Assembly: GCF_054482595.1 (NCBI RefSeq)
Contig: NZ_CM137008.1
Length of the DNA stretch: 64,000 bases
Direction: 5' to 3' (one strand)
Shown here: positions 15,389-53,200 of the stretch, in pieces
Position numbering within the stretch: the stretch's first letter is position 1
Layout: each line of letters starts with the position of its first letter
Program-made: the position numbers and the translations under genes
The notes under the pieces: generated by a model
Told to the model about the DNA's origin: nothing
The model's database searches: none
What the model saw: the letters and a program-made list of their open reading frames with translations, nothing else

Positions 15389-16339
15389 ATGCGTGTGTTA
15401 CTGGCACCGATGGAGGGTGTGCTTGACTCTCTGGTGCGTGAATTGCTGACCGAAGTTAACGACTACGATCTGTGCATCACCGAGTTTGTCCGCGTGGTGG
15501 ATCAACTGCTGCCGGTAAAAGTCTTTCATCGCATTTGCCCTGAGTTACAAAACGCCAGCCGGACACCATCCGGTACGCTGGTGCGCGTTCAGTTGTTAGG
15601 TCAGTTCCCACAATGGCTGGCAGAGAACGCCGCCCGTGCGGTGGAGTTAGGTTCCTGGGGCGTGGATCTCAATTGCGGCTGCCCGTCGAAAACGGTTAAC
15701 GGTAGCGGCGGCGGGGCGACGTTACTCAAAGATCCTGAACTCATCTACCAGGGGGCAAAAGCGATGCGTGAAGCTGTACCGGCGCATTTGCCCGTCAGCG
15801 TGAAAGTGCGTCTGGGCTGGGACAGCGGTGAGAAGAAATTTGAAATCGCCGATGCGGTTCAACAGGCTGGTGCTACGGAGCTGGTGGTGCATGGACGGAC
15901 AAAAGAGCAGGGTTACCGCGCGGAGCATATTGACTGGCAGGCGATTGGTGAGATTCGCCAGCGGCTGAATATTCCGGTGATTGCCAACGGTGAAATCTGG
16001 GACTGGCAGAGCGCGCAACAATGCATGGCGATCAGCGGCTGCGACGCAGTGATGATTGGTCGCGGGGCGCTCAATATTCCCAACCTGAGCCGGGTGGTAA
16101 AATATAACGAACCGCGAATGCCGTGGCCGGAGGTGGTTGCTTTGCTGCAAAAATATACCCGTCTGGAAAAGCAGGGCGATACCGGGTTATATCACGTAGC
16201 GCGGATTAAACAGTGGTTGAGTTATTTGCGTAAAGAATACGATGAAGCAACGGAATTATTTCAGCATGTTCGGGTGTTGAATAATTCCCATGATATTGCA
16301 AGGGCTATTCAGGCAATTGATATCGATAAGCTGCGATAA
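15389..16339 (+). CDS. dusC: tRNA-dihydrouridine(16) synthase
   Basis: ATG at 15389 gives the 316-aa [14 protein letters not shown]… Dus-family TIM-barrel protein; track ORF starts upstream. Confidence 0.9.
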
Positions 16340-16450
16340 TAGTGGAATCGCAGTTTATCAGAGACAATGAATCGCTTATTCAGCTTCATCATCTTGTTGC
16401 GCTCCTTTCATGAGCTAAGCCACATATTGCCACTGGCGCAAGGAGCGCGC

Positions 16451-16640
16451 AGGGGGAGGACAATCGCCTCCTCCCCCTGCACCCCCGGGCTCTGGCGAAC
16501 AAAATCGCCGCTGCGCGGTACCTTCAGCTTATCCCCTTCGGCTACCGGGTCGGGCGCGAGGTAACGTCCTTGTAAGACGCGCCCTCAGCCCACATCCATG
16601 TGGGCTGCCCCGGCCTTCGGGGAACGCTTCAGCGATTTTG
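16451..16640. repeat. Cluster of GC-rich perfect palindromes in dusC-yohP intergenic region
   Basis: cagggggagga-N8-tcctccccctg (11-bp arms), ggcgcg-N19-cgcgcc, cagcccacat-cc-atgtgggctg (10-bp arms) and ccccg-gcctt-cgggg, all read directly; not a canonical REP or ERIC sequence. Confidence 0.4.
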
Positions 16641-16726
16641 ACGCCACCAACACCGGAGCTGTTTGCAAATCAAGTACACAAAATATCTAGTTCCTGACCT
16701 GACAACTTATATGCCATATCTGATTT

Positions 16727-16810
16727 TTAAAATATCATCTTAAATACGCCAGTCACCACCAGTAGCCCAATCAGGAAAATAATCAATACAGCCCAGAGTA
16801 TAATTTTCAT
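16727..16810 (-). CDS. yohP: 27-aa small membrane protein YohP (MKIILWAVLIIFLIGLLVVTGVFKMIF)
   Basis: Not in ORF track (below length cutoff); found by reverse-complement reading; sequence recognised as YohP. Confidence 0.8.
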   Translation of the reverse strand: MKIILWAVLIIFLIGLLVVTGVFKMIF

Positions 16811-17033
16811 TGGCGTTCCTTTATTTGTGAGTGCTGAATAAGTATAGGAAAAAACGAAGCCCTTTGCCGTTATCCATAAACGATTAAGATAAATCGGAGA
16901 ATATCATTCACTTAGTGTATATTTTTCTGGATATGTCGTTTTATTGCTACTGATGTATTGCCACGCGAAACTAAAAAATATATCGCAACACACGGTAATC
17001 TCCGCGCACCTTTTCTTACCTGATTATTCCCCC

Positions 17034-18470
17034 ATGAATCGTGATTCCTTTTATCCAGCCATCGCCTGTTTTCCGCTGTTACTGATGCTGGCCGGGTGTG
17101 CGCCTATGCATGAAACCCGCCAGGCGTTAAGCCAGCAAACGCCCGCTGCACAAGTTGACACCGCATTACCCACGGCGCTGAAAAATGGTTGGCCAGACAG
17201 CCAATGGTGGCTGGAGTATCACGATAATCAACTCACTTCATTAATTAACAATGCACTACAGAACGCACCGGATATGCAGGTGGCTGAACAGCGCATTCAG
17301 CTAGCTGAAGCCCAGGCGAAGGCAATTGCCACTCAGGATGGTCCGCAGATCGACTTTTCTGCGGATATGGAGCGGCAAAAAATGTCGGCAGAAGGGCTAA
17401 TGGGGCCGTTTGCTCTGAACGATCCGGCCGCAGGTACGACCGGTCCGTGGTACACCAACGGAACTTTTGGCTTAACGGCGGGCTGGCATCTCGATATCTG
17501 GGGAAAGAATCGGGCGGAGGTTACTGCCCGCCTGGGTACGGTTAAAGCACGGGCGGCGGAACGCGAGCAAACCCGCCAATTGCTGGCTGGCAGCGTAGCC
17601 CGCCTGTACTGGGAGTGGCAAACCCAGGCGGCGTTAAACACTGTCTTGCAGCAAATCGAAAAAGAGCAGAACACCATTATCGCGACCGATCGCCAGCTAT
17701 ATCAGAACGGGATTACTTCTTCAGTTGAAGGTGTGGAAACCGATATTAATGCCAGCAAAACCCGGCAGCAGCTCAACGATGTCGCGGGGAAAATGAAAAT
17801 TATTGAGGCACGGTTAAGCGCACTTACAAATCACCAGACAAAGTCATTGAAGCTTAAACCGGTCGCGTTGCCGAAAGTGGCAAGCCAGCTTCCTGATGAA
17901 CTGGGGTACTCCTTACTGGCCCGGCGGGCAGATTTGCAGGCGGCGCACTGGTACGTTGAGTCATCGCTAAGCACCATTGATGCGGCAAAAGCGGCATTTT
18001 ATCCTGACATCAACCTGATGGCCTTCCTGCAACAGGATGCGTTGCATTTAAGCGATCTGTTCCGTCATTCCGCGCAGCAAATGGGCGTTACGGCAGGCCT
18101 GACGCTACCCATTTTCGATAGTGGTCGTCTTAACGCCAACCTCGATATCGCAAAAGCCGAAAGCAACTTGTCTATCGCCAGCTACAACAAAGCGGTGGTT
18201 GAAGCGGTGAATGACGTGGCGCGGGCAGCCAGTCAGGTTCAGACACTGGCGGAGAAAAACCAGCATCAGGCGCAAATTGAGCGCGATGCCTTGCGTGTGG
18301 TAGGTCTTGCGCAGGCCCGCTTTAACGCGGGCATCATTGCTGGTTCCCGCGTCAGCGAAGCCAGAATCCCCGCGCTGCGTGAGCGGGCCAATGGCCTGTT
18401 ATTGCAAGGGCAGTGGCTGGATGCCTCCATTCAACTCACTGGTGCGTTGGGCGGGGGTTACAAACGCTGA
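17034..18470 (+). CDS. mdtQ: Outer-membrane efflux lipoprotein (OMF / NodT family), intact
   Basis: ATG at 17034 gives a 478-aa protein with lipobox LLMLAGC; track ORF starts upstream. Recalled as a pseudogene in K-12; intact here. Confidence 0.85.
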   Translation: MNRDSFYPAIACFPLLLMLAGCAPMHETRQALSQQTPAAQVDTALPTALKNGWPDSQWWLEYHDNQLTSLINNALQNAPDMQVAEQRIQLAEAQAKAIATQDGPQIDFSADMERQKMSAEGLMGPFALNDPAAGTTGPWYTNGTFGLTAGWHLDIWGKNRAEVTARLGTVKARAAEREQTRQLLAGSVARLYWEWQTQAALNTVLQQIEKEQNTIIATDRQLYQNGITSSVEGVETDINASKTRQQLNDVAGKMKIIEARLSALTNHQTKSLKLKPVALPKVASQLPDELGYSLLARRADLQAAHWYVESSLSTIDAAKAAFYPDINLMAFLQQDALHLSDLFRHSAQQMGVTAGLTLPIFDSGRLNANLDIAKAESNLSIASYNKAVVEAVNDVARAASQVQTLAEKNQHQAQIERDALRVVGLAQARFNAGIIAGSRVSEARIPALRERANGLLLQGQWLDASIQLTGALGGGYKR

Positions 18471-20749: not shown

Positions 20750-20922
20750 AAAGTTCTTTGACGTTGCATTGCTGGCGTAAATGTCAGCAATGCAGCATTT
20801 CCTCACGATTCTCCTTTGACGATCGCACTTTTTGCTCGTTATGATGGCGTCGCTAGCCTCAGTAAATCCTTACTCCGGCGGTGCGCAACCCGTGCGCGTG
20901 AACCACTATCTGAATGCTCATC

Positions 20923-21855
20923 ATGCCGAAATTTCGAGTTTCTTTATTTAGCCTGGCCCTTATGCTGGCTGTGCCTTTTGCACCGCAGGCCGTTGCGAAA
21001 ACGGCAGCAGCTACCACCGCTTCACAACCGGAAATTGCCTCCGGTAGCGCGATGATTGTTGATCTGAATACCAACAAAGTGATCTATTCGAACCACCCGG
21101 ATCTGGTGCGTCCGATTGCGTCTATCAGCAAATTAATGACCGCGATGGTTGTGCTGGATGCACGACTGCCGCTGGATGAAAAACTAAAAGTGGATATCAG
21201 CCAGACGCCGGAGATGAAAGGGGTCTATTCGCGCGTACGACTGAACAGCGAAATCAGCCGTAAAGATATGCTGTTGCTGGCGCTGATGTCTTCAGAAAAC
21301 CGCGCGGCGGCAAGCCTTGCGCACCATTATCCCGGTGGTTACAAAGCCTTTATTAAGGCGATGAATGCGAAAGCGAAATCGCTCGGAATGAACAACACGC
21401 GCTTTGTTGAACCGACCGGATTGTCGGTGCATAACGTTTCAACTGCCCGTGACTTAACCAAACTGCTCATTGCCAGCAAACAATATCCGTTGATCGGTCA
21501 GTTAAGTACTACCCGGGAAGATATGGCAACCTTCTCTAACCCGACGTATACGCTGCCGTTCCGCAATACTAACCATCTGGTGTATCGCGATAACTGGAAT
21601 ATTCAGTTAACCAAAACGGGCTTTACCAATGCGGCGGGCCATTGTCTGGTGATGCGTACGGTTATCAATAATAAACCGGTAGCGCTGGTAGTGATGGACG
21701 CGTTTGGCAAATATACCCATTTTGCCGATGCCAGCCGCCTGCGTACCTGGATTGAGACCGGTAAAGTGATGCCTGTTCCGGCAGCAGCGTTAAGCTATAA
21801 AAAACAAAAAGCCGCCCAAATGGCGGCGGCGGGGCAGACGGCACAGAACGATTGA
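20923..21855 (+). CDS. pbpG: D-alanyl-D-alanine endopeptidase PBP7
   Basis: ATG at 20923 gives 310-aa protein with signal peptide and SISK (SxxK) active-site motif. Confidence 0.9.
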
Positions 21856-29358: not shown

Positions 29359-30090
29359 ATGAAGATGTTGCGCGATCCGCTGTTCTGGCTCATTGCTTTG
29401 TTTGTGGCACTGATTTTCTGGCTGCCTTACAGCCAGCCGCTGTTTGCTGCCTTGTTCCCACAACTGCCACGACCCGTTTATCAGCAAGAAAGTTTTGCAG
29501 CTCTGGCACTGGCTCATTTCTGGCTGGTGGGAATTTCGAGTTTGTTTGCGGTGATCATTGGTACTGGTGCCGGAATTGCTGTCACTCGCCCGTGGGGCGC
29601 GGAATTTCGCCCACTGGTGGAAACTATTGCCGCCGTTGGACAGACTTTTCCGCCCGTCGCGGTGCTGGCGATCGCCGTTCCGGTGATCGGGTTTGGTCTG
29701 CAACCAGCGATTATCGCCTTGATCCTTTACGGTGTGCTGCCCGTCCTGCAGGCGACACTTGCCGGGCTGGGAGCGATTGATGCCAGCGTGACAGAAGTTG
29801 CGAAAGGTATGGGAATGAGTCGAGGTCAGCGACTGCGTAAGGTCGAGCTACCGCTGGCGGCTCCGGTGATTCTGGCGGGCGTGCGAACTTCGGTGATTAT
29901 CAACATTGGTACGGCGACGATCGCCTCAACGGTAGGGGCCAACACGCTGGGTACGCCCATCATCATCGGGCTTAGCGGATTTAATACCGCGTATGTGATC
30001 CAGGGGGCGTTACTGGTGGCACTGGCGGCGATCATCGCAGACCGCCTGTTTGAAAGGCTGGTGCAGGCGCTTAGCCAGCACGCAAAATAA
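29359..30090 (+). CDS. yehW: ABC transporter permease (osmoprotectant uptake)
   Basis: 243-aa hydrophobic ORF immediately after yehX. Confidence 0.9.
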
Positions 30091-30178
30091 AGGTATAACC
30101 TGCGAGCATGACGCCACCAATTCCGCCTAACGCCATAAACAGGAACAGGGCGATGACCCCAATTTTAGCTATGCGCAT
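30071..30178 (-). CDS. yohO: 35-aa small membrane protein YohO ([35 protein letters not shown])
   Basis: Not in ORF track; found on reverse strand; its last 20 nt overlap the 3' end of convergent yehW; sequence recognised as YohO. Confidence 0.75.
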
Positions 30179-41351: not shown

Positions 41352-41434
41352 AAAAAAACCTGCTGGTGAGGCAGGTTCTTTTATTTACTATTTTCAGGCC
41401 TAACACCACAGCCTGTGCAACATCGTGTTCCAAC
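41352..41434 (-). ncRNA. orzO: Antisense sRNA antitoxin of the first zor toxin copy (OrzO/OrzP type)
   Basis: Minus-strand sigma70 promoter (-35 TTGCAA 41469..41464, 17-nt spacer, -10 TATAAT 41446..41441); terminator hairpin cctgctggtgaggcagg (41359-41375) followed by U7 on minus strand; 5' 19 nt complementary to the toxin leader. O versus P copy assignment is from memory and uncertain. Confidence 0.55.
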
Positions 41435-41672: not shown

Positions 41673-41762
41673 ATGGACTCGCTGACACAAAAGTTAACCG
41701 TGCTCATTGCTGTACTGGAGCTATTAGTAGCTCTGTTACGGTTGATTGATTTGTTGAAGTAA
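41673..41762 (+). CDS. zorO: Type I toxin, 29 aa (MDSLTQKLTVLIAVLELLVALLRLIDLLK), ZorO/ZorP family
   Basis: Not in ORF track; AAGGAG Shine-Dalgarno 5 nt upstream; ~175-nt leader from predicted TSS; sequence recognised as Zor toxin. Which copy is zorO and which zorP is not certain. Confidence 0.8.
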   Translation: MDSLTQKLTVLIAVLELLVALLRLIDLLK

Positions 41763-41961: not shown

Positions 41962-42042
41962 AAAAAAACCTGCTGGTGAGGCAGGTTCTTTTATTTACTA
42001 CAGTGACGCTAACTTGCTGATTGTGCAACATTTCGTACCAAC
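41962..42042 (-). ncRNA. orzP: Antisense sRNA antitoxin of the second zor toxin copy
   Basis: Same architecture as copy 1: -10 TATAAT at 42054..42049, -35 TTGCAA 42076..42071, terminator hairpin 41969-41985 with U-run; 5' 18 nt complementary to cognate leader (42190-42207). Confidence 0.55.
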
Positions 42043-42280: not shown

Positions 42281-42370
42281 ATGGACACGCTGACACAAAA
42301 GTTAACCGTGCTCATTGCCGTACTGGAGTTATTAGTGGCTCTGTTACGGTTGATTGATTTGTTGAAGTAA
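42281..42370 (+). CDS. zorP: Type I toxin, 29 aa (MDTLTQKLTVLIAVLELLVALLRLIDLLK), ZorO/ZorP family
   Basis: Not in ORF track; second tandem copy 608 bp downstream of the first; differs by Ser3Thr; AAGGAG SD present. Confidence 0.8.
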   Translation: MDTLTQKLTVLIAVLELLVALLRLIDLLK

Positions 42371-42858: not shown

Positions 42859-45800
42859 TTAATGGAAAATGACGTCAGGTGCGCTTAACGCCTCACTCAA
42901 ATTAAACACATCAAGTTCGGCAAAAGTGACGGATTTATTGTCACGGTACACTCGAAGAGAACGGAAGCTCATTAACGCTTTGCTATCAACATTGTAGTGG
43001 TTAAAACCGGGTGAAAACTTAAGGACCAGCCGGTACTCGCCCAGGTCATAGACAAATGCATCCTCATAGCCTGACTCCCAGCCTTTGTATCGCATTCCCA
43101 TAAGCTGCCCAACGGTAGCGGATTTACCTTCCCAGCGAGTCAGGCTGTTACTGGTTGACTCGTCAGGTGTGAGCAGCACCGTGCGCCGCGCCAACTGGCG
43201 AAAAGGCGGCATAATTTCGTAATCGGCAAAAAGCTGTGCAAATTCACTGCGCATTTCTACTGTCATTTCTAACGGGTGGGCAATGCCAATCAGAGCGTCC
43301 GCAGGCAGGTCAATTGGCTCATCTTGCGCATTGCAGAACTCCCCCTCTGCGGCCACACGAAAGGCGTTGAGTAAACAACGCGGTTCATTTGCCGGATAAG
43401 CCCCCCATATTAATCGCTGGGTAACCAGACGGGTAAAGGGATGATTAACAAACAGAGAATGAAAATCTGCCAGCGACCAGCGTCGGGTGGTACGTAGGGC
43501 CGTTTCAAGACGCGGGAGCAGGTTTTTGCTCACCTGAGTAGCATCTTTTTTTAGCCCTTTTAGTCGGGCCAGTGCCTCGGGCGCTTTCAGTTGATCGTCA
43601 TCGGCACGCAACCGGGGAACACTTTTCTGGCGAACGTTTTGTTGATCAAAGATAACCGGGTTGAGGTTTTCATCGAAGCGAACGGTAAACTGCCGGGGAC
43701 CAAAATCAAAAATCAACGCCTGCGGATCATCAAGACCTAGTGTTGGGACTAATCTGTCCGCTAACTCTTCCTGGCTTAGCCCGCGATTTTCTGCGACCAC
43801 CTGAAGAAATTCCGCTGCGTTTTCACGTAATGAAGAGGATTTCGCCCGTTGTGATACATGATGCAGCTGTATCAGCGCCATATCATTATTCATCAAGGTA
43901 AGTATATTCAGACCAATGACAGCACGGGCAGATTTGCCTTCTTGTGGCCAGGCGAGGATCTGTGTCGTCAGATCCCGAGCCGTGCTTTCGTCACCAAAGA
44001 GACTTAACGCCAGAAATGCCCAGTTGTCTTTTGCGGGGGCACCAGCTTGTTGCCACGCAGTGAAGAGATCCCAGGCAAAAGCGGCCAGCGTTTGTGGCTG
44101 GCAAAACGTTTTCAGTTGTTCCAGACCGCTATAAAAACGTCCGCCCTGGGTAAAGCGCAGCATTTCGCCGATAATTTCCAGAGCGTCATCGGTAACAGGC
44201 TGATTATTAGTGATAAGTCGCGGCCTGGACCACATTGCCGGATGCCAGAAATCAGGGGCTTTTGGAATGCGTGCCGGGTAAATGTCCATTGGACCCTGTT
44301 TCAGTAAATGCTCCAGGGCAGGCCATACATCTGTACGCTGCCAGCGGTTTGCCACGGTTTGCAGCAATTCACCATGTCCCTGTTCGTAAAGTAAACGCAG
44401 GGCAAGTAATGCAGCTTCGCTATTATCGCTGGATTTGGTGAAGACAAGAGGGATAAGTGCAGTAGCCGTATGTTCCGGCCAATGTAAAATCCACTGGCGA
44501 GCCAGATCACGCTGCACCGCGAAACGTCGCCAGACGCGGGCAACGGGCAGGGCCAGTTCTGTTGCGCCAAAATTTAAAATTAACGGAAATGTTTCTTTTG
44601 GACGATGTAAAAAAGCCAACATCAGACCTGGTAGCGCATCCAACCCGAGGATACTGAGAAAATAGTCCTCACCCGCGAACAGATGTTTTTTCTCATTGAT
44701 ACGCAGCCAGAAGGTCAAAGCCATCTCACGCGGCAACTGTGCCAATAAATACAGGTTCCAGACACTCTTTTCCGGACGATAACGTGAGTAGTTGTCATTT
44801 TCCCATATGTTAATTAACGCTTCTATGTGACCGCTGCGGAGCGCCTGTTCTGCTAATTGTGCTTCCGGGGAGTTCCAGCCATTCAGGATCTCTTCAACCC
44901 GCCCCTGGTAGTAATGCCACTGAACAATGAGTGAATTGCGTGCAGCATCCAGTTTTCCGGGGAGTATATAATTCAGAAACAGCCATACATCATCCCCAAA
45001 ACCCAGTTCCTGTAATACAACTCGCCCACTTTTTTGTTCCATGCGTTCCGCAAGAGATTCCGTGCTGAAATAACGGGCAGACTCAGTGGAGGCAAGCCAC
45101 TCTTGTTCGCCTGGTTGCCAGTAAACTTGCGGGGTTAATTCGAGCGGTGCCAAATCAAGACGTGGAGCTGTCATTTTTTTCTTACTACGCCACGGTGGTG
45201 AAACGAGGATTTCAGGCAGATTGCTGTTATCGGTGCCATCAATAACCGGTTTGGGCGGTGCCAATAAATAACTATTCAGTACTGCCCGGGCTTGAGTACT
45301 TAACCACTGCATCACCTCTTCTGCCAGTTGTGGCTGCGATGCCATCAGCGTTTGTAACAGCGTACGCCAGTATTCATCGCGTGCTTTTTGCTGGGCAGGC
45401 AGCTTTTTGTCTTCGATGATTGGATAACCAAGGCGGGCTGGTGGTTCTTTTAACGCCAGCAGTTCTGCCAGTGCCGCGAGCGTCGCGTGGGGGAAGTTTT
45501 TACTGTATTTAGCCACACGTTGCAGGCTGGGTTTGTTTTTATCAGCCACCAGTAGCAAGGTGTGGATGACCTGCGGATGGTTAATTTGTACCAACAGACT
45601 GCCGCAATCTTCTTTATGGGCATACATCGCGAGGCGCGGAATGGCTGCCAGTCCTTGTTCGCGCAAAAGGGCGGCGCAGGCCGCGTAGCCGAAGTGGTTT
45701 TTTTGTGACATGTAGCTGGCTTCGCGATCGCTAAATACGTCCAGGCCCCAGTATCGTTCGAGTTTTTTTACCGCCGTATTATCAGTAGCAACGACCTTTA

Positions 45801-46491
45801 ACCACTCCTTTGAATGGAGACTTGACCGGGAGCTTTCAAGACTGGCGAGTTCATTGGCTATTTCAGGCTTTTCCGGGAGGATCAGCGCAATAAAAGGACG
45901 GCGAATTTTGGGTATTCCTGGCAGTGCGGCAATGAGTTTATCGGCACAACGCTGCCAGCAACTTTCCTCTGCCAGCGACAGATGCTTACGCAAACGGAGA
46001 TCGAAATCGTTATAGGTCGCGGAGCCATAACCGTAGCCATAGTCCTCGTCCTGATACTGCAAAGTGACGACCAGTGAATCACTCTCATAACGCCGCGCAA
46101 TGCACTGACGCGCCATCACTACATCCGTCGCATATTCCAGCCCCTCTTGTTGGACGATTTCGTCGAGCAACTGTTGGCTGTCATTTTGCGCGATACAGGC
46201 TAGCGCCGCCATTGTCCGGGCCGGGATTGAGGGTTTGTGTTCGCCGATCAAGTTGATGGCCTGCGTGATGGCGGACTGCCACTCCAGTGAAAAATTTTCA
46301 TAACGCCAGACAATGTTTTTTTTCTTCTCAGCTTTTTGTAGCAATTCATCACCCAGTGTCTGAATGATGCTTTCAGTGATAACAGGCACTGGTTCGCCCG
46401 GCCAATTGCGATGGCTGAGTGGTGTTTTACCCTTTTTATATTTCAGTTCCAGTTGGGCGTTATCAGCCAGCCACGGTAATTCCTTGTCCAT
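42859..46491 (-). CDS. yehI: Giant DUF4132-family protein (1210 aa), paralog of MolR without the N-terminal WGR domain
   Basis: C-terminal ~450 aa strongly similar to the two upstream paralogs (e.g. AWDLFTAW…GAPAK…NWAF; LADYE…PPFRQL); recognised as YehI. Confidence 0.9.
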   Translation of the reverse strand: MDKELPWLADNAQLELKYKKGKTPLSHRNWPGEPVPVITESIIQTLGDELLQKAEKKKNIVWRYENFSLEWQSAITQAINLIGEHKPSIPARTMAALACIAQNDSQQLLDEIVQQEGLEYATDVVMARQCIARRYESDSLVVTLQYQDEDYGYGYGSATYNDFDLRLRKHLSLAEESCWQRCADKLIAALPGIPKIRRPFIALILPEKPEIANELASLESSRSSLHSKEWLKVVATDNTAVKKLERYWGLDVFSDREASYMSQKNHFGYAACAALLREQGLAAIPRLAMYAHKEDCGSLLVQINHPQVIHTLLLVADKNKPSLQRVAKYSKNFPHATLAALAELLALKEPPARLGYPIIEDKKLPAQQKARDEYWRTLLQTLMASQPQLAEEVMQWLSTQARAVLNSYLLAPPKPVIDGTDNSNLPEILVSPPWRSKKKMTAPRLDLAPLELTPQVYWQPGEQEWLASTESARYFSTESLAERMEQKSGRVVLQELGFGDDVWLFLNYILPGKLDAARNSLIVQWHYYQGRVEEILNGWNSPEAQLAEQALRSGHIEALINIWENDNYSRYRPEKSVWNLYLLAQLPREMALTFWLRINEKKHLFAGEDYFLSILGLDALPGLMLAFLHRPKETFPLILNFGATELALPVARVWRRFAVQRDLARQWILHWPEHTATALIPLVFTKSSDNSEAALLALRLLYEQGHGELLQTVANRWQRTDVWPALEHLLKQGPMDIYPARIPKAPDFWHPAMWSRPRLITNNQPVTDDALEIIGEMLRFTQGGRFYSGLEQLKTFCQPQTLAAFAWDLFTAWQQAGAPAKDNWAFLALSLFGDESTARDLTTQILAWPQEGKSARAVIGLNILTLMNNDMALIQLHHVSQRAKSSSLRENAAEFLQVVAENRGLSQEELADRLVPTLGLDDPQALIFDFGPRQFTVRFDENLNPVIFDQQNVRQKSVPRLRADDDQLKAPEALARLKGLKKDATQVSKNLLPRLETALRTTRRWSLADFHSLFVNHPFTRLVTQRLIWGAYPANEPRCLLNAFRVAAEGEFCNAQDEPIDLPADALIGIAHPLEMTVEMRSEFAQLFADYEIMPPFRQLARRTVLLTPDESTSNSLTRWEGKSATVGQLMGMRYKGWESGYEDAFVYDLGEYRLVLKFSPGFNHYNVDSKALMSFRSLRVYRDNKSVTFAELDVFNLSEALSAPDVIFH

Positions 46492-46500
46492 GCTCTTTCC

Positions 46501-49500
46501 TTATTCAAACAGGGCTTCAATATCGTTAATTAGCTCGCTGGCGGTGATGGCATCGAGTACGGAGAGCTGCGCTTCCTGTGTTGAATTACTCCCCCAGCCA
46601 TAGCTTTCCGCTTTGCCTTCCCATAGCCACTGCTTGCTTAAGAGTTGCTCGGCACTCAGTTCGGCTGGCGACATGCCTACCGCAAAGCCTTCATCGATTT
46701 CCATGATTAACGACCAGCGGCCCAGAGGTTTGATCATCCAGCCGATCCAGCCTCCATCCTGTGGTTCGCCCTTTATCCAGCCTTTATTCGCCAGCCCCAT
46801 TACCCGACCGCTCGGGCATTTTCTGCCTGCCCAGCGGGTCAGTTCGCTGGCATTGCGCTCGGTTTCTGTCAGGGCGTAACTGTTACGGTCGAGCTGGCGG
46901 AACGGCGGTAGCAGTTCGTAGTCGGCAAAAAGCTGCCCAAATGCGGCGGCATCCGTCGGTGATATTTCCAGAACGTGAGGAATACCAACAGAGATATCGC
47001 CTTCCGGCAGGGTGAAAAGATCATCGTCAGCGGTGCTGTAGCTGTTATCTTCCGCTACCCGGAAACAGGCCAGTAGCTGGTTTTCGGCGCTATAAACGCC
47101 CCAAATCAGACGGCGGGTTAAGTGGCGAACTAGCGGATGCTCAACCAGGAAGAGCTGAAAGTTATCCGGTGACCAGCGGCGACGCAGGCACATGGCGGAT
47201 TCCAGCCTTGCTACCTGCTGGGCGGCGACGGTACGCGCATCTTTTTTCAGCAGTTTGTAGCGGTTAACAGCATCGTTCGCCTGTGATTCATCATCGCTTT
47301 TGTTTGGTTTGGGCAGGTCTTTCAGACGGCTGCCAGAAACATCACGCACAAACGGTTTTAAGGTTTCATCAAAGCTGACGGTGAACTGGCGTGAGCCGAA
47401 ATCCAGCAGCAACGAACCGTTATCATCCAGACCGAGATCCGGTGCTAACCGATCTTCAAGCTCTGCCACCGTGAGTTCGCGGCTTTCGGCAATGTCGGCA
47501 ATTTTTTCTTTTGCCCGCTCCTGTAATGCTTTGAATTTCAGTTTCTGGGCAATACCGTTAAGCTGCATCAGGGCGATATCACTACCGATAGCGGCGAGAA
47601 TATCCAACCCAACGGTGGCGCGTTTATGCTGGGATTCACCAGGCCAGGCGCGTATTAATGGCGTCAGTTTGCGGGCGGTGTCATCGTTACCAAGAACGCC
47701 TAACGCAGTGAACGCCCAACTCTCTTTCGACGGTGCGCCCGCAGTCAGCCAGGCGGTAAACAGATCCCAGGCAAATTCAGCCAGTGAGTCGGCGGTACAG
47801 GCATCTTTCACCTGCAATAATCCCGGATACAGGGCCTCTTCCTGAGGGAAGCGGAGCATTTCACCGAGGTGCTGGAGTGCGCTATCTGGCAGTGATTGGG
47901 CGTTTGTATTTAATACCGGGCGCGTCCAGAGCGATGGCTGATAAAAGGCCGGAAGAGTGGGGATTTTTGTCGGGTGATTATCTAAGGGATCGAGCGCAAG
48001 CAGAGCGTTCACCGCGTCGGTTACTTCCGGCTGGTTATAACGCCGGGCGATTTCTTGCAGTAATGGCTGATGACCGTTTTCGGTAAGCATACGTAAGGCA
48101 GCGCGAGCGTTATCTTGTGCTTCACCGGCTTTGCCGAGCGCCGAAGGCAGCAGGCCGGTTATGGCGTGTTCCGGGTATTTTAGCAGCCAGCTACGGGCGT
48201 CTTGTCGTAGGGTTTTGAGTTTGTTGAAGGCGCGGGCAATGAATGGAGCCAATTCGACAGCCGCGAAATATTGTGCCACGGGAAGAGCTTCCTGCGGATA
48301 GCGAGATGCTGAGTGGATAAAACCTGTTAAACCAGCAAGTCGAAGATGCAACATTACTTGTTTTTCACCTGTATGTGGTTCTTTACTAAGGATATTCCAC
48401 ATCTCAATAGCTTTATTTATGGGTAAAACATGGAGTGAAGAAAGCTTCCATTCGCCCTGATAAGGGGCGTTATAGGACTTAAAAGCATCGATCAAAGTTA
48501 AATAATCTTCACGCTGCCAAGCATCCAACGCTATTTCTGGAATATCAATATAGCCTCTATGTTTGTTCCAATCCCAGCGGTCGAATCCCAGGGAATTCAG
48601 AAAACCTTTTTCTCCCTCTGCTTGCTGACGAGGTTGCCAATTATGCTGCACTTGTAGTCTTTTGCTTTTTGTTTCATTTATTGTACAGAAAGATTCCAGG
48701 GGTAATGGTGCTAAATCCAGCACTGGAGTCGGCGATTTTTTCTTTTTAGCCTGCCACGGCGGTGAGACTAATACGGCAGGCAGCATATCGGCGTTCGCAT
48801 AAACTGAAGGTTGTGTCAGTTGTTGCTGGCATGACTTAAGAACGGTAACTGTCGGGGCAGATAGCCAGGAGATCACCCGTTCTACTAATGTTGGTTGTGA
48901 GATAAGCATCGTCATTAGCATCATGCGCCAGCGCTTTTCATCTTTTTGTGCCAGAAGTTCTGCTAATGCCGCCAGCGCTGCATGTGGAAAGCGAACGAAA
49001 GCCTTTGTCATGCGATCGTGGCAACGCTTTCCCTGCTCACTTGCATGGATAAGTAGTGTAAGTGCTTGCGGGTGGTTGATATGCATCAACACTTCCCCAC
49101 ATGTGTCACCAGCAGCGTAAGGGGCAAAACGGGCCAACGCAGCGACACCTTGCTCCTTGAGTACTGTCGCACACCAGATTTTACCGCCGTAATAATCATC
49201 AAATACCTGCCCTGGCTGTCCTGGATAGTATTTCCCCAGTTCTGCCAATACCTGCTCGTCGGTGGTCGTCAGTTTTAGCCATTCCAGCGCATATACCCCT
49301 TTTTGTCCGCAAAGATGTCTGGCAATCTCATGAGCTACTTCTGGTTTTTCCGGCAACAATAGTGCGACCAGCGGCTGGTTCCAGGCGGGCATGTTTCCGA
49401 GAGCGGCAATCAGTTTGTCGGCGCAGCGCTGCCATACATCGTCATTTGCAAGTGAGAGATGCTTACGCAGGCGCATTTCAACCGAAGCGAAGCGTGACAG

Positions 49501-50259
49501 ATAGTCAGGCTGCTTGTTATCCGGGGTAAAAGTAATGAGGTGGGCATCATAATTCCAGTCAAATCGGATGAATTGCAATGCGATGACAACCTCAGTGGCA
49601 TATTCCAGACCACCTTCCTGGACAATTTGATCCATTAACTCTTCGTGATCGTTACGATTGAAGCCTTGCTCCAGCGCAACCAGTACCGCCAGAACCATCG
49701 GTAGTAGTGTGGTGCTAATCGGCGAGTCGATAAGGCCCACTGCTTGTGTAATCGCCTGCTGCCAGTCCAGTGAACAGGTGCTGTAATCGAAGGTGATCAC
49801 CTTTTTAAAACGCCGGTGAGTATTCGCGGAGACGGAGCGTAGCAGGGTTAATTCATTCTCCTTTGGCACAGGATCGCCAGGCCAGCGTCGATGACTTAGT
49901 GTGGTTGGCGCAACCTCTGTCGGTAAAATGATTTGGGCGTCGTCTGCCAGCCAGGGGAGGTGGTCTCCAGTCAATGCTGGTTTGTCTTGTGGCAAAGGGG
50001 CTATTTCAGGGCATTCGATAACCTGGGTGGGTACAGATGTCGGTGTCATCACGGATACTTCTTCTACGTAGCCCTTTTTTGTTTTCTCCGCAATCAGCTT
50101 CAGTTCCGCTTTTTCCGCCGCCGCAGCATCTGCAAAGCTTTTTACCTGACTTTGCCCGTTAGTGCCGACTTTACCCCAGGTTATATGCAGCTCGTTTCTC
50201 TGCTGCTCCACCGCCCAGAATTTATGTGATTTTTCGTCCTGATAAATATAGGTTTTCAT
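46501..50259 (-). CDS. molR: MolR-like giant protein (1252 aa): N-terminal WGR domain + C-terminal DUF4132
   Basis: N-terminus MKTYIYQDEKSHKFWAVEQQRNELHITWGKVGTNGQ… is a WGR domain; intact reading frame; 9 nt upstream of yehI. Which of the two copies corresponds to K-12 molR/yehH is unresolved. Confidence 0.85.
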   Translation of the reverse strand: MKTYIYQDEKSHKFWAVEQQRNELHITWGKVGTNGQSQVKSFADAAAAEKAELKLIAEKTKKGYVEEVSVMTPTSVPTQVIECPEIAPLPQDKPALTGDHLPWLADDAQIILPTEVAPTTLSHRRWPGDPVPKENELTLLRSVSANTHRRFKKVITFDYSTCSLDWQQAITQAVGLIDSPISTTLLPMVLAVLVALEQGFNRNDHEELMDQIVQEGGLEYATEVVIALQFIRFDWNYDAHLITFTPDNKQPDYLSRFASVEMRLRKHLSLANDDVWQRCADKLIAALGNMPAWNQPLVALLLPEKPEVAHEIARHLCGQKGVYALEWLKLTTTDEQVLAELGKYYPGQPGQVFDDYYGGKIWCATVLKEQGVAALARFAPYAAGDTCGEVLMHINHPQALTLLIHASEQGKRCHDRMTKAFVRFPHAALAALAELLAQKDEKRWRMMLMTMLISQPTLVERVISWLSAPTVTVLKSCQQQLTQPSVYANADMLPAVLVSPPWQAKKKKSPTPVLDLAPLPLESFCTINETKSKRLQVQHNWQPRQQAEGEKGFLNSLGFDRWDWNKHRGYIDIPEIALDAWQREDYLTLIDAFKSYNAPYQGEWKLSSLHVLPINKAIEMWNILSKEPHTGEKQVMLHLRLAGLTGFIHSASRYPQEALPVAQYFAAVELAPFIARAFNKLKTLRQDARSWLLKYPEHAITGLLPSALGKAGEAQDNARAALRMLTENGHQPLLQEIARRYNQPEVTDAVNALLALDPLDNHPTKIPTLPAFYQPSLWTRPVLNTNAQSLPDSALQHLGEMLRFPQEEALYPGLLQVKDACTADSLAEFAWDLFTAWLTAGAPSKESWAFTALGVLGNDDTARKLTPLIRAWPGESQHKRATVGLDILAAIGSDIALMQLNGIAQKLKFKALQERAKEKIADIAESRELTVAELEDRLAPDLGLDDNGSLLLDFGSRQFTVSFDETLKPFVRDVSGSRLKDLPKPNKSDDESQANDAVNRYKLLKKDARTVAAQQVARLESAMCLRRRWSPDNFQLFLVEHPLVRHLTRRLIWGVYSAENQLLACFRVAEDNSYSTADDDLFTLPEGDISVGIPHVLEISPTDAAAFGQLFADYELLPPFRQLDRNSYALTETERNASELTRWAGRKCPSGRVMGLANKGWIKGEPQDGGWIGWMIKPLGRWSLIMEIDEGFAVGMSPAELSAEQLLSKQWLWEGKAESYGWGSNSTQEAQLSVLDAITASELINDIEALFE

Positions 50260-50271
50260 TGTTAAATCCTT

Positions 50272-53200
50272 TTAATCAAACAGTGATTCAATGTCGTTAA
50301 TCAGCTCGCTGGCGGTGATGTCGTCGAGCATGGAGAAAGTGGGTGAGGATTGTTTACCATAGCGATCATAAGGGGCGGTGATTTTTACGCTTTCGACAGG
50401 CAGCAGGTCGCTATACCCCGTTTCGCCATAAATTAATGAAAAAGGTTCTGTTTCAAGTTCGAGAGCACCATAAGGGGTAGATTTGCGCATCGCATAGACG
50501 CTGCCGCTTTCTTCCAGACGTTGCCAGCCTCTGCGTTCCAGCCCGACAATGCGTCCGGCCTGGCAGAGACGTCCGTTCCAGCGTGACAATTCATGGACAT
50601 TACGTTCGTTATCAGCAAGGTGGTAACTACCACGTTCGAGCTGTTGGAAAGGGGGAAGCAGTTCGTAATCAACGTAAATTTGCCTGAATGCAGCGGCGGA
50701 TTCAGGGGGGATTTCCAGCACATGCGGTATACCGATGTTTCCTGCTGGCAGCGTGAATAACTCATCCTGCGCATCGCTGTAAGTGCTGTCTTCTGCCACG
50801 CGAAAACAGGTGATAAGAGCGTTTTCATCGTTATAAACCCCCCATAACAGCCGTCGGGTTAAGTGACGTACCAGCGGATGCTCCACCAGAAACAGGCGGA
50901 ACTGCTCTGCCGTCCAGCGTCTGCGCTGGCACATAGCCTGTTCCAGACGGGTAATTTGCTGGCTGGCGATAGCACGAACATCTTTTTTCAACTGTTTGAA
51001 GAGATTAACTGCGTCAGTTGCCAGTGTTTTATCATCGCTCTGGTTTGGCTTAGGTAAATCTTTCAGGACTTTGCCGTTTGCATCGCACACTACAGGTTTT
51101 AAGGTTTCGTCAAAACCAACGGTGAATTTGCGGGGGCCGAAATCCAGTATCAGCGAGCCACTGCTATCAAGCCCTAAATCCGGTGCCAGGCGATCTTCCA
51201 GTTCGGCCATTGTCAGTCCGCGATTTTCGGCGACCATATTGATTCTGTCGCTGGCATTTTCCTGTAATGCAACGAATTTAATCTTTTGCGCAATGCCATT
51301 AAGCAACATAAGCGCAATGTCGCTACCGATACTGGCTAACACATCCAGCCCGTAAACCGCGCGTTTATGCTGGGATTCACCCGGCCAGGCGCGGATGAGC
51401 GGGGTTAGTTTACGCGCGGTGTCGTCATTGCCTAGAATCCCCAGCGAGGTAAATGCCCAGTTCTCTTTTGCGGGTGCGCCTGCTTCTGTCCATGCCGTGT
51501 AGAGATCCCAGCCAAAGTCAGCCAGTGATTCGCGGGTGAAGGTCTCTTTGATGATCGCCAGCCCAGCGTAGGAGGTAATGTCGCGTGGAAAGCTCAACAT
51601 TGTGCCGAGGTGGCGCATAGCGTCATCTGGCAGAGGCAGGTTGTTACTTTTAAGCCGAGGTCTGCGCCATAAGGTGAACTGATAAAAGCCGGGCAGTGGG
51701 GCGATTTTTGCAGGATATTCTTCCAGTGGGGCGCTATCAAATAATGTTGCCAGCGCAGATAAAACATCAGGTTGATTATATCCTTGGGCGATTTCCTCAA
51801 TCGTTTCTCGCTGGTTTAATTTCACTAGCAGGAGGAGTGCCTGGCGGGCATATTCCCGATTTTGGCACGGTTTGCCCAGCGCCAAAGGCAGTAGCCCGGC
51901 GGCGGCATGGCGCGGGTTATTTGCCAGCCAATTAACGGCATCCTTGTAAGCTATTTTTTTCTGTAACCGCTGCGCCATTGGTAAGGCTAGTTCACTGGCT
52001 CCAATAAAAAGGGTGAATATCCACAGGCGTTGATGATCTCGTTGCAAGCAGGTCATAAACGCAGGAATGGCCGTACTACCAAAAACCGCCAGAATCTCTT
52101 TCTCACCTGAATATCGCTCCTCAATGATTATTTGGTTGAGAAATGAAATCGCCTGTTGTCCCGGTAAGTAACAAAGCGCAGATAGATTCCAGCTTTTGTT
52201 GGCATTGTTGTGATATTTCGCAAACTCAGCTTTTAGTGCTGGAAAATCAAAGCGCAACAAGGCATCAACAGCGCTTTGCGGTATATATTTTTTTTCATGT
52301 AAGTCATTTTCGCAATGCAGCCATTCATTAAAACCTAATTGCCAAAGGATTTGTTGTTCTGGTGTAAAAGGAATGAAAGATGTCTCCCAGCTTTCTTTTT
52401 CAATTAGTGGCAGAACGGTAAATAAGGTTTGCTGTGATGCCTGATATTGCGCAATTTCACTGAATCTGGATATGTCAGTATGACTGATTAACTCTGTAAT
52501 TCCTGGTGTGATATCCGTGACGGCAGGAATGGGAAGTACCGGTAAATCAAATACGGGTATGACATTCTTTTTCTTATTTATTACCCACGGTGGAGCGACA
52601 AGCAGCTCCGGCAACATATCCACAGTGGCATATTCACATTCTTCAGCTACTGGCAGCGGACGACATTCAGATAAGATGCCTGCCGCCTTAGCATTAACCC
52701 AGGGAATGACCTCGCATACTAACTCTGGCGTGGCGGTAATCAGTTTGACAAGCGCTTTACGCCACTCATTATTTTCATGTATTGCCAGCAAAGTAGCATA
52801 AGCGGCAATAGCCGCAGCGGGATGTTTTTGGCAGGCTTTGCTTAAGTATTCCAGGTGCTTTTTCTTGCCATTTACACCGAGGATCAGAATTTGAATCGCA
52901 TCCGGGTGATTCGTTTTCCATAGCCATTTGACAAGATCTTCAGCATTGGCGTGTATGTGAGTGAAAAGGTCCGTGTATTTTACGGGATAGTCGACAGGTA
53001 GCTTGAGAAGAATCCGGCTTACACCACGCATTCCATTATTTGCCAGCAACGTAGCCAGATATTTGCGGAAATCATTATATAGCGGTGGGAAACCATATTT
53101 TTCCTGGATGGCCAGGGCAACATCATCGCTTACCATCATACTTAACCAGGTCATCGCCGGAACGTTTTGGTCTGCATAACGTAGCGCCATAGCATTGGCA

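What the first reader, a model, noticed from the sequence alone, without database searches (positions are those of the whole stretch)
16727..16810. 27-codon membrane peptide gene yohP missed by the ORF track
Reverse-strand ORF MKIILWAVLIIFLIGLLVVTGVFKMIF, a single-TM peptide, sits between dusC and mdtQ. It is the kind of small protein that length-filtered ORF calls omit.
Basis: partly seen in the sequence, partly recalled or inferred. Interest (0 to 1): 0.3.

Follow-up and report, generated by a model that had tools for sequence, protein, structure and literature searches.

The report
Known small membrane protein gene yohP

Summary
The ORF at 16727-16810 (-) translates exactly as reported, to MKIILWAVLIIFLIGLLVVTGVFKMIF. 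The window is E. coli chromosome, and the ORF is yohP (K-12 b4679), lying between dusC and mdtQ.

RefSeq annotates it as "small membrane protein YohP". It scores above the curated cut-offs of NCBIfam NF011345 and Pfam PF25659. It is single-copy in 5421 of 5426 complete E. coli genomes.

My own cross-species test used loci fetched through dusC, not through the peptide. In 20 sequences from seven genera the frame always has 27 codons, an ATG and a Shine-Dalgarno. pN/pS is 0.04-0.26, variable columns by codon position are 14/3/24, and the flanks diverge immediately outside the ORF. A conserved CCTATACT motif fits a sigma-S type -10.

It also supplies a mechanism. YohP inserts through SRP and then SecYEG or YidC, dimerises through G15, and causes sublethal depolarisation that leads to metabolic silencing.

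Verdict: observation confirmed, interpretation supported, already known, low interest.

By-products:
- The 3' flank is the TRIP1c repeat, inverted relative to K-12, with two GGA-loop hairpins resembling CsrA-binding sites.
- An unannotated zorO/zorP toxin pair lies at about 41.7-42.4 kb.

The parts
16727..16810 (-). yohP coding sequence: 27 codons plus a TAA stop. It encodes one transmembrane helix flanked by K2 and K24. G15 (reported as needed for dimerisation) and G21 are present.
   Evidence: sequence and translation; RefSeq and K-12 annotation, identical peptide; family models above cut-off; 27 codons in all 20 orthologous sequences; pN/pS 0.04-0.26; only this frame is free of stops in every sequence; G15 dimerisation, PMC7549839.
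16816..16822 (-). Shine-Dalgarno region AAAGGAA. The AGGA core is at 16817-16820, 6 nt before the ATG.
   Evidence: Read from the sequence. A purine-rich SD (AAGGA, AGGGA, AGGAG or GGGAG) sits at the same distance in all 20 orthologous sequences.
16840..16848 (-). Inferred promoter -10 element CCTATACTT: hexamer TATACT at 16841-16846, with C at the -13 position (16847). It has the sigma-S type extended -10 look. The inferred transcription start is near 16834-16835, giving a 5' UTR of about 24 nt.
   Evidence: The motif CCTATACT is conserved at the same distance in Escherichia, Citrobacter, Salmonella and Buttiauxella, with CTACACTT in Enterobacter, while the surrounding DNA diverges. Salmonella YohP production is sigma-S and growth-phase dependent (PMC5437024). 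The generic sigma-70 scan found no - strand site here, as expected where there is no -35 match. The start site is inferred, not mapped.
16651..16726 (-). Strain-variable 3' flank of yohP (76 nt), without a recognisable intrinsic terminator.
   Evidence: It diverges from K-12 immediately after the stop codon. No terminator-like site was found in 16300-17100. The fold of 16640-16835 is no better than shuffled sequence, z -0.03. In Citrobacter and Enterobacter a GC hairpin follows the stop directly.
16379..16650 (-). TRIP1c repeat element (structured core about 16397-16648) in the yohP-dusC spacer, oriented opposite to K-12. It carries two adjacent GGA-loop hairpins on the yohP-sense strand: 16586-16607 (loop AUGGAU) and 16552-16584 (loop region UUACAAGGACGUUAC).
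   Evidence: 89% identical to the K-12 copy but inverted between collinear flanks; 1999 genomes in the window orientation, 3307 in the K-12 orientation; MFE -151 kcal/mol, z -6.5; 80 consensus pairs; compensatory changes in both hairpin stems in the alx-sstT copy while the loop is kept; weak TwoAYGGAY hit, 28.4 bits against a threshold of 43; identified as TRIP1c, PMC10888264.
15389..16339 (+). dusC (tRNA dihydrouridine(16) synthase), the convergent downstream neighbour.
17034..18470 (+). mdtQ (outer-membrane efflux lipoprotein), the divergent upstream neighbour. It is intact here and a pseudogene in K-12.

Best explanation
This is yohP, a known gene for a 27-residue inner-membrane protein.

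Shown by sequence here: it has a strong Shine-Dalgarno, an ATG start and an unusually U-rich reading frame, and it is under purifying selection across Enterobacterales.

Inferred here, supported by Salmonella data: it is transcribed from a sigma-S type promoter about 24 nt upstream of the ATG, so it is made mainly in stationary phase and under nutrient limitation.

Shown in the literature on the identical E. coli peptide:
- The full-length peptide is recognised post-translationally by SRP and FtsY and is inserted by SecYEG or YidC.
- When (p)ppGpp inhibits SRP, the U-rich mRNA itself localises to the membrane and insertion becomes SRP-independent.
- In the membrane YohP adopts a mainly N-out/C-in topology and forms SDS-resistant dimers that need G15.
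- When it is produced early, in exponential phase, it partly dissipates the membrane potential. That induces the phage-shock response, raises (p)ppGpp, lowers global protein synthesis and condenses the nucleoid. The authors call this state 'metabolic silencing'.
- Deletion increases sensitivity to ciprofloxacin and oxidative stress.

Still inferred: how the helix dimer lowers the membrane potential, and whether the same chain of events occurs at native stationary-phase expression.
For: Identity. Prevalence: single copy in 5421 of 5426 complete E. coli genomes, with at least 99% identity in 5354 records, and annotated as yohP in 13 of the 14 sampled rows (the other is a 29% partial match). Coding selection: 20 sequences fetched through dusC, not through the peptide; all have 27 codons with an ATG and a stop; variable columns by codon position 14/3/24; pN/pS 0.04-0.26; only this frame is open in all of them. 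K2, W6, G15, G21 and K24 are invariant, with synonymous codon variation at most of these positions. Promoter: conserved CCTATACT and sigma-S dependence in Salmonella. U content: 40.7% against a median of 24% and a maximum of 30% for 50 long ORFs in the window, matching the published uracil-dependent membrane targeting of the mRNA. Literature: expression conditions and the SPA-tagged strain; membrane fractionation, tag-free pulse labelling, topology and G15; SRP/SecYEG/YidC insertion; depolarisation, Psp, ppGpp and the deletion phenotype; nucleoid condensation and about 1000 copies per cell.
Against: Nothing argues against the identification. On the mechanism, the physiological effects were measured with premature, plasmid-driven production, and the authors list this as a limitation. 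The deletion has only a minor proteome effect and no growth phenotype under inducing conditions. The earlier report of induction by SDS/EDTA and H2O2 could not be reproduced. The gene is dispensable in nature: E. albertii NBRC 107761 has a deletion covering window 16455-16868. The gene is not next to dusC in about 60 of the 80 Enterobacterales loci examined. The promoter and transcription start are inferred here, not mapped, and no terminator was found.
Confidence: 0.95

Rival explanations
1. YohP acts mainly as a modulator of one specific membrane-protein partner, as AcrZ does for AcrB, MgtS for MgtA and MgrB for PhoQ. The partner might be related to the neighbouring efflux component MdtQ. 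On this view depolarisation is a side effect of overproduction.
For: Most characterised small membrane proteins work this way (introduction of PMC12719787). yohP sits next to an mdtQ homologue in 16 of the 19 fetched loci that carry it. The deletion phenotypes concern antibiotic and oxidative stress.
Against: mdtQ is a pseudogene in K-12, yet yohP there is identical, expressed and functional. Franconibacter, Buttiauxella and Yersinia keep yohP with no mdtQ hit in the locus. No partner was reported in the papers I read, which included proteomics and site-directed cross-linking.
Confidence: 0.12
2. yohP is the toxin of an unrecognised type I toxin-antitoxin-like module, a TisB/ZorO-type depolarising peptide held in check by an RNA.
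For: It is a small hydrophobic peptide whose production depolarises the membrane and condenses the nucleoid, as TisB, DinQ and LdrD do. One promoter-like site on the + strand (16711-16738) would drive an antisense transcript across the ORF.
Against: No Rfam family reaches its threshold at the locus, whereas the genuine type I pair elsewhere in the same window gives OrzO-P hits of 99.9 and 88.8 bits. Only the ORF, the SD and the -10 are conserved across genera, and the flanks where an antitoxin RNA would lie diverge completely. The inferred 5' UTR is about 24 nt, against 174 nt for zorO. The single antisense promoter-like site is at chance level (1 found, 1.4 expected), and its first hexamer lies in strain-variable DNA. 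The protein is abundant in growing cells and its effect is sublethal.
Confidence: 0.05
3. The locus is a non-coding small RNA (catalogued in Salmonella as STnc1330), or simply intergenic DNA, and the 27-codon frame is fortuitous.
For: The Salmonella transcript was first listed as a non-coding sRNA. Short ORFs are common: the window holds 291 ATG ORFs of 20-40 aa.
Against: pN/pS is 0.04-0.26 with near-saturated synonymous change. The length is fixed at 27 codons. The ATG, SD and stop are conserved. Every other frame contains stops in at least some of the sequences. Tagged and untagged protein has been detected in E. coli and Salmonella. A second, RNA-level role for the mRNA is not excluded, and membrane localisation of the RNA is documented.
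Confidence: 0.01

Closest known systems
YohP of E. coli K-12 (b4679; NCBIfam NF011345; Pfam PF25659)
   Same: The 27-aa peptide is identical, the ORF DNA is identical, and the roughly 220-nt upstream region differs at only three positions. It has the same neighbours, dusC and mdtQ.
   Different: mdtQ is intact here and a pseudogene in K-12. The DNA just 3' of the stop codon differs, and the TRIP1c repeat is in the opposite orientation.
Salmonella YohP / STnc1330
   Same: It has 27 aa with 2 substitutions (MKILLWAILIIFLIGLLVVTGVFKMIF), the same CCTATACT -10 motif and SD position, and it is convergent with dusC. Its production is sigma-S and growth-phase dependent.
   Different: The dusC-yohP spacer is 58 nt with no TRIP1 element, against 387 nt here.
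Type I toxins such as TisB and ZorO
   Same: They are small, single-helix inner-membrane peptides whose production lowers the membrane potential and condenses the nucleoid.
   Different: No antitoxin RNA, no long 5' UTR, a sublethal effect and high native abundance. A genuine zorO/zorP-orzO/orzP pair in the same window shows what such a locus looks like.
Partner-binding small membrane proteins (AcrZ, MgtS, MgrB)
   Same: Size class, single transmembrane helix and stress-linked expression.
   Different: No specific protein partner is reported for YohP. Its described effect is on the bilayer and the proton motive force.

Membership tests
YohP (NCBIfam NF011345 equivalog / Pfam PF25659) | Full-length match to the family HMM above the curated cut-off | tested here: met
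   NF011345: 67.3 bits against a cut-off of 58, residues 1-27 on profile 1-27. PF25659: 50.6 bits against 27.
YohP (NCBIfam NF011345 equivalog / Pfam PF25659) | A peptide of about 27 residues with one hydrophobic helix flanked by lysines (K2, K24) and a mid-helix glycine (G15) | tested here: met
   Sequence. GRAVY 2.47 and best 19-mer 2.96. K2, G15, G21 and K24 are invariant in 20 orthologous sequences.
YohP (NCBIfam NF011345 equivalog / Pfam PF25659) | Orthologous position, convergent with dusC | tested here: met
   Adjacency holds in Escherichia, Citrobacter, Salmonella and one Enterobacter. The gene is 1-2 kb from dusC in Franconibacter, Buttiauxella and Yersinia.
YohP (NCBIfam NF011345 equivalog / Pfam PF25659) | Translated, integral inner-membrane protein | not testable with these tools
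   Reported for the identical peptide: SPA-tag western, tag-free pulse labelling, fractionation and carbonate resistance, and about 1000 copies per cell from Li et al. 2014 as cited in PMC12542507.
Type I toxin-antitoxin system | An antisense or adjacent small-RNA antitoxin conserved together with the toxin ORF | tested here: not met
   No Rfam match at the locus. The flanks are not conserved across genera. The only antisense promoter-like site is at chance level.
Type I toxin-antitoxin system | Growth arrest or killing when the peptide is overproduced | not testable with these tools
   The literature reports slower growth and sublethal depolarisation, not killing.
TRIP1 repeats (for the 3'-flanking element) | A GC-rich repeat of about 265-273 bp at the yohI(dusC)-yohG(mdtQ) locus, homologous to the copies at aqpZ-ybjE, putP-ycdN, alx-sstT and copA-ybaP | tested here: met
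   The 272-nt match to the K-12 copy. Copies at the other four loci were found independently. The description in PMC10888264 agrees.
TwoAYGGAY RNA (Rfam RF01731), for the hairpin pair inside TRIP1c | Score at or above the Rfam gathering threshold | tested here: not met
   28.4 bits against 43. The match spans the whole model, but 13 positions are missing on each strand of the outer helix. It is not filed as a member; the resemblance is limited to the two adjacent GGA-loop hairpins.
TwoAYGGAY RNA (Rfam RF01731), for the hairpin pair inside TRIP1c | Two terminal loops that read AYGGAY | tested here: inconclusive
   Loop 1 is AUGGAU, an exact fit, invariant in 84 of 98 full-length copies and kept through compensatory stem changes. 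Loop 2 is AAGGAC, AGGGAU or AGGAC, which keeps GGA but does not fit AYGGAY strictly.

The most novel reading that the evidence does not exclude
The orientation polymorphism of TRIP1c decides which of the two convergent genes carries its twin GGA-loop hairpins in a 3' UTR. In the window allele (about 37% of complete E. coli genomes) they lie on the yohP-sense strand, 76 nt after a stop codon that is followed by no terminator. The sigma-S-driven, abundant yohP transcript could then end in a CsrA-binding module of the TwoAYGGAY type, tying this small protein, or its mRNA acting as a sponge, to the Csr network in a strain-specific way. In K-12-type strains the same module would instead lie on the dusC-sense strand. 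Neither the TRIP1 paper nor the YohP papers I read mention this.
Probability: 0.1. Interest if true: 0.45.

Novelty: already known. Interest (0 to 1): 0.07.

Why it matters
It matters little for discovery. yohP was found in 2008, is in K-12 and RefSeq annotation, has dedicated Pfam and NCBIfam models, and is a model substrate for small-membrane-protein insertion with a published physiological role.

Its use here is as a positive control. A simple screen (short ATG ORF, TM-like 19-mer, Shine-Dalgarno) picked out exactly the three genuine small membrane peptides in 64 kb. It also showed that two of them, zorO and zorP, remain unannotated in RefSeq because no family model exists for them.

The locus also corrects a small point in the TRIP1 literature: the nearest gene to TRIP1c on the mdtQ side is yohP, not mdtQ (yohG).

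Tried and rejected
I fetched 80 loci through the neighbouring gene dusC instead, which also avoids selecting loci by peptide similarity.
- The primary Storz-lab papers (PMC2614699, PMC2798279, PMC3173172) are not held. Their results are cited only as described in PMC12719787 and PMC7549839.
- The generic sigma-70 scan found no - strand promoter and no terminator at the locus. The promoter assignment rests on cross-genus conservation of CCTATACT and on the Salmonella sigma-S data, not on the scan.
- Rfam has no hit for the yohP mRNA (STnc1330).
- I first read the 3'-flank element as a possibly undescribed invertible repeat. A literature search then showed it is TRIP1c, with its orientation polymorphism already reported.
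- I thought the two sequence subtypes of the element tracked orientation. Copies L004 and L006 break that link, so I dropped the idea.
- Mixed flank pairs among the metagenome contigs could be assembly chimeras or the published TRIP1a/TRIP1c rearrangements. I did not resolve this.
- Folding of the yohP transcript region showed nothing beyond shuffled controls.

Full report
**1. Observation**

The - strand of window 16727-16810 reads ATG AAA ATT ... TTT TAA and translates to MKIILWAVLIIFLIGLLVVTGVFKMIF*. The mechanical ORF list shows it as a 27-aa ATG ORF. AAAGGAA lies 6 nt upstream of the ATG. The peptide is extremely hydrophobic: GRAVY is 2.47 and the best 19-residue window averages 2.96. Lysines sit at positions 2 and 24.

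**2. Identity and context**

An 801-nt query around the ORF is 100% identical to many complete E. coli chromosomes. There the features are annotated as dusC, yohP ("small membrane protein YohP", WP_000691708.1) and mdtQ. In K-12 MG1655 the same peptide is b4679 / YP_002791249.1.

The peptide passes the NCBIfam equivalog NF011345 (67.3 bits, cut-off 58) and Pfam PF25659 (50.6 bits, cut-off 27). The exact sequence is held on at least 1000 contigs, where the look-up stops counting, under YohP names.

A 141-nt query covering the promoter and the ORF matches 5421 of 5426 complete E. coli genomes. It matches once per genome, at 99% identity or more in 5354 records, and is annotated as yohP in 13 of the 14 sampled rows; the exception is a 29% partial match.

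So the gene is "missed" only by a length filter. The ORF lister's default is 60 aa.

**3. Independent test of coding potential**

The homology tools refuse queries under 30-40 aa. I therefore fetched 80 Enterobacterales loci through the neighbouring DusC protein, so that loci were not chosen by similarity to YohP.

A full-length 27-aa match lies within 3 kb of dusC in 19 of them. These are Escherichia species, several Citrobacter, two Salmonella enterica subspecies, one Enterobacter, Franconibacter, Buttiauxella and one Yersinia.

With the window that makes 20 sequences and 17 distinct ORF DNAs.
- Every one has exactly 27 codons, an ATG, a stop at codon 28 and a purine-rich SD at the same distance.
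- The DNA diverges completely right after the stop and upstream of the promoter.
- Variable alignment columns by codon position are 14/3/24.
- Nei-Gojobori pN/pS against the window is 0.04-0.26, with pS at 0.58-0.98.
- Only the proposed frame is free of stops in all sequences.
- K2, W6, G15, G21 and K24 are invariant.

As a chance control, only 3 of 291 ATG ORFs of 20-40 aa in the window combine a TM-like segment with an SD. All three are genuine small membrane peptides.

The gene is dispensable in some lineages. E. albertii NBRC 107761 has a deletion corresponding to window 16455-16868. About 60 of the 80 loci have no yohP near dusC, and I could not check whether it lies elsewhere in those genomes.

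**4. Anatomy of the transcription unit**

About 30 nt upstream of the ATG, the motif CCTATACT(T) (window 16840-16848, - strand) is conserved in Escherichia, Citrobacter, Salmonella and Buttiauxella. Enterobacter has CTACACTT there. The surrounding sequence is not conserved.

From general knowledge, a TATACT hexamer preceded by C at -13 and lacking a -35 match is the sigma-S signature. PMC5437024 shows that Salmonella YohP, previously listed as the sRNA STnc1330, is abundant in stationary phase and nearly undetectable in an rpoS mutant. The generic sigma-70 scan reports nothing on this strand. The transcription start near 16834-16835 is my inference.

The ORF is 40.7% U. The 50 long ORFs of the window have a median of 24% and a maximum of 30%. 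This matches the published finding that uracil content of the coding sequence drives translation-independent membrane localisation of yohP mRNA.

No intrinsic terminator is detectable between the stop codon and dusC. The region up to 16640 folds no better than shuffled sequence.

**5. Mechanism, from the literature on the identical peptide**

- **Expression.** A chromosomal YohP-SPA fusion under its native promoter rises from early to late stationary phase, in minimal medium and under oxygen limitation. The earlier report of SDS/EDTA and H2O2 induction was not reproduced. Copy number is about 1000 per cell in MOPS medium, from Li et al. 2014 as cited in PMC12542507.
- **Localisation.** Both His-tagged and untagged pulse-labelled YohP fractionate with inner-membrane vesicles. 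More than 90% is carbonate-resistant, and the topology is mainly C-in/N-out. It forms SDS-resistant dimers that require G15 but not G21.
- **Insertion.** SRP binds it post-translationally, and FtsY plus either SecYEG or YidC then insert it. When (p)ppGpp inhibits SRP, mRNA targeting substitutes.
- **Function.** Production in exponential phase lowers membrane potential and fluidity and raises cardiolipin. It induces PspA and PspC, raises (p)ppGpp, lowers protein synthesis and condenses the nucleoid. Deletion sensitises cells to ciprofloxacin and oxidative stress but has little effect on the proteome.

The authors themselves note that native-level consequences remain to be shown. How a 27-residue helix dimer lowers the proton motive force is not established.

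**6. Rivals**

- **Specific protein partner.** This is possible by analogy with AcrZ, MgtS and MgrB, and mdtQ co-occurs in 16 of 19 loci. Against it, mdtQ is a pseudogene in K-12 and absent next to yohP in three genera, and no partner was reported in the papers I read.
- **Type I toxin.** This fits the phenotype but not the locus. There is no antitoxin RNA, no conserved non-coding flank and only a short 5' UTR. The genuine zor-orz pair in the same window is detected at once.
- **Fortuitous ORF or purely non-coding RNA.** The codon-level conservation and the protein detection exclude this.

**7. By-product: the 3' flank is TRIP1c, inverted relative to K-12**

The window and K-12 are identical through the ORF and differ at only three positions in the yohP upstream region. 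They diverge right after the stop codon. A 272-nt segment (window 16379-16650) is 89% identical to K-12 but inverted, between collinear flanks. Collinear matches count 1999 genomes with the window orientation and 3307 with the K-12 orientation.

The element folds very stably: -151 kcal/mol, z -6.5 on the yohP-sense strand and z -5.2 on the other.

One metagenome scan used a pattern taken from outside the hairpins. Together with annotation look-ups it placed copies at five loci: yohP-dusC, aqpZ-lysO, putP-efeU, alx-sstT and copA-ybaP.

A literature search then showed that this is the TRIP1 family (Rudd 1999; Li et al. 2024, PMC10888264). That paper reports the same five loci, orientation polymorphism at TRIP1a and TRIP1c, a "double-Y" RNA fold and transporter genes as neighbours. 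So this too is known.

Two small additions come from this analysis.
- The paper never mentions yohP. It describes TRIP1c as 363 bp upstream of yohG (mdtQ), whereas yohP lies between them, 40 nt (K-12) or 76 nt (window) from the element.
- TRIP1 contains two adjacent hairpins with GGA loops, AUGGAU and AAGGAC/AGGGAU. They give a full-length but sub-threshold match to Rfam TwoAYGGAY: 28.4 bits against 43. In the alx-sstT copy, the stem of hairpin 1 differs at three pairs by compensatory changes while its loop is unchanged, and hairpin 2 shows a G-C to A-U swap. PMC4333381 proposed TwoAYGGAY RNAs as CsrA binders because they have this kind of hairpin pair. My comparison with the CsrA SELEX consensus is from memory.

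Whether TRIP1c is transcribed from yohP and whether it binds CsrA are both untested. I do not file TRIP1 as a TwoAYGGAY member.

**8. Verdict**

The feature is an already-known, annotated and experimentally characterised gene, so interest is low. The most novel reading still open concerns TRIP1c orientation and a possible CsrA-type module in the yohP 3' UTR. It is speculative, and I put its probability at about 0.1.

Noticed in passing
window 16379-16650 (structured core about 16397-16648; hairpins at 16586-16607 and 16552-16584, - strand): The yohP-dusC spacer holds the TRIP1c repeat, oriented opposite to K-12. 1999 complete genomes carry the window orientation and 3307 the K-12 orientation. 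The published TRIP1 survey (PMC10888264) overlooks yohP as the adjacent gene. The element carries two GGA-loop hairpins that give a sub-threshold TwoAYGGAY match (28.4 bits against 43) and look like CsrA-binding sites. Their stems show compensatory changes in the alx-sstT copy while the loop is conserved. Transcription and CsrA binding are untested.
   Followed up: yes
window 41673-41762 (+) and 42281-42370 (+); Rfam OrzO-P hits at 41352-41427 (-) and 41962-42035 (-): A tandem zorO-orzO / zorP-orzP type I toxin-antitoxin pair lies between yehL and yehK. The two 29-aa toxin ORFs are MDSLTQKLTVLIAVLELLVALLRLIDLLK and MDTLTQKLTVLIAVLELLVALLRLIDLLK. The antitoxin RNAs score 99.9 and 88.8 bits against a threshold of 60. 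RefSeq annotates nothing in this 1.2-kb gap and NCBIfam has no model for the peptide, so unlike yohP these small ORFs really are left out of public annotation. The system is known from the literature (PMC3919570).
   Followed up: yes
window 17034-18470 (+): mdtQ (an outer-membrane efflux lipoprotein of 478 aa, annotated by RefSeq as MdtQ) is intact in this strain, whereas it is a pseudogene in K-12.
   Followed up: partly
L005 (E. albertii NBRC 107761), 1208-1226; corresponds to window 16455-16868: A natural deletion removes yohP, its promoter and most of TRIP1c, leaving dusC and mdtQ in place. This shows that yohP is dispensable in that lineage.
   Followed up: partly
H42-H46 (for example NZ_CM180508.1, 2297062-2298598): Some K-12-type E. 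coli strains carry an IS1 insertion inside the mdtQ-yohP-dusC stretch. The match there splits into two pieces with an IS1 transposase annotated between them. I did not determine the exact insertion point relative to yohP.
   Followed up: no
window 20838-20918 (+): An Rfam Peptidase-S11 RNA motif (72.8 bits against a threshold of 34.8) lies immediately upstream of pbpG (window 20923-21855). This is the expected association.
   Followed up: no
window about 42860-54070: Three diverged direct repeats spaced about 3.7 kb apart correspond to yehI and two DUF4132 paralogues. The paralogues are annotated as partial or frameshifted pseudogenes in the identical RefSeq strain.
   Followed up: partly
window 30071-30178 (-): Another annotated small protein gene, yohO (35 aa), overlaps the 3' end of yehW. 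It is also below a 60-aa ORF filter.
   Followed up: no
metagenome loci (flank pairs such as yohP side with aqpZ or lysO side): About ten contigs join the flank of one TRIP1 locus to the flank of another. They could be assembly chimeras at the repeat or the TRIP1a/TRIP1c chromosomal rearrangements reported in PMC10888264. This is unresolved.
   Followed up: no
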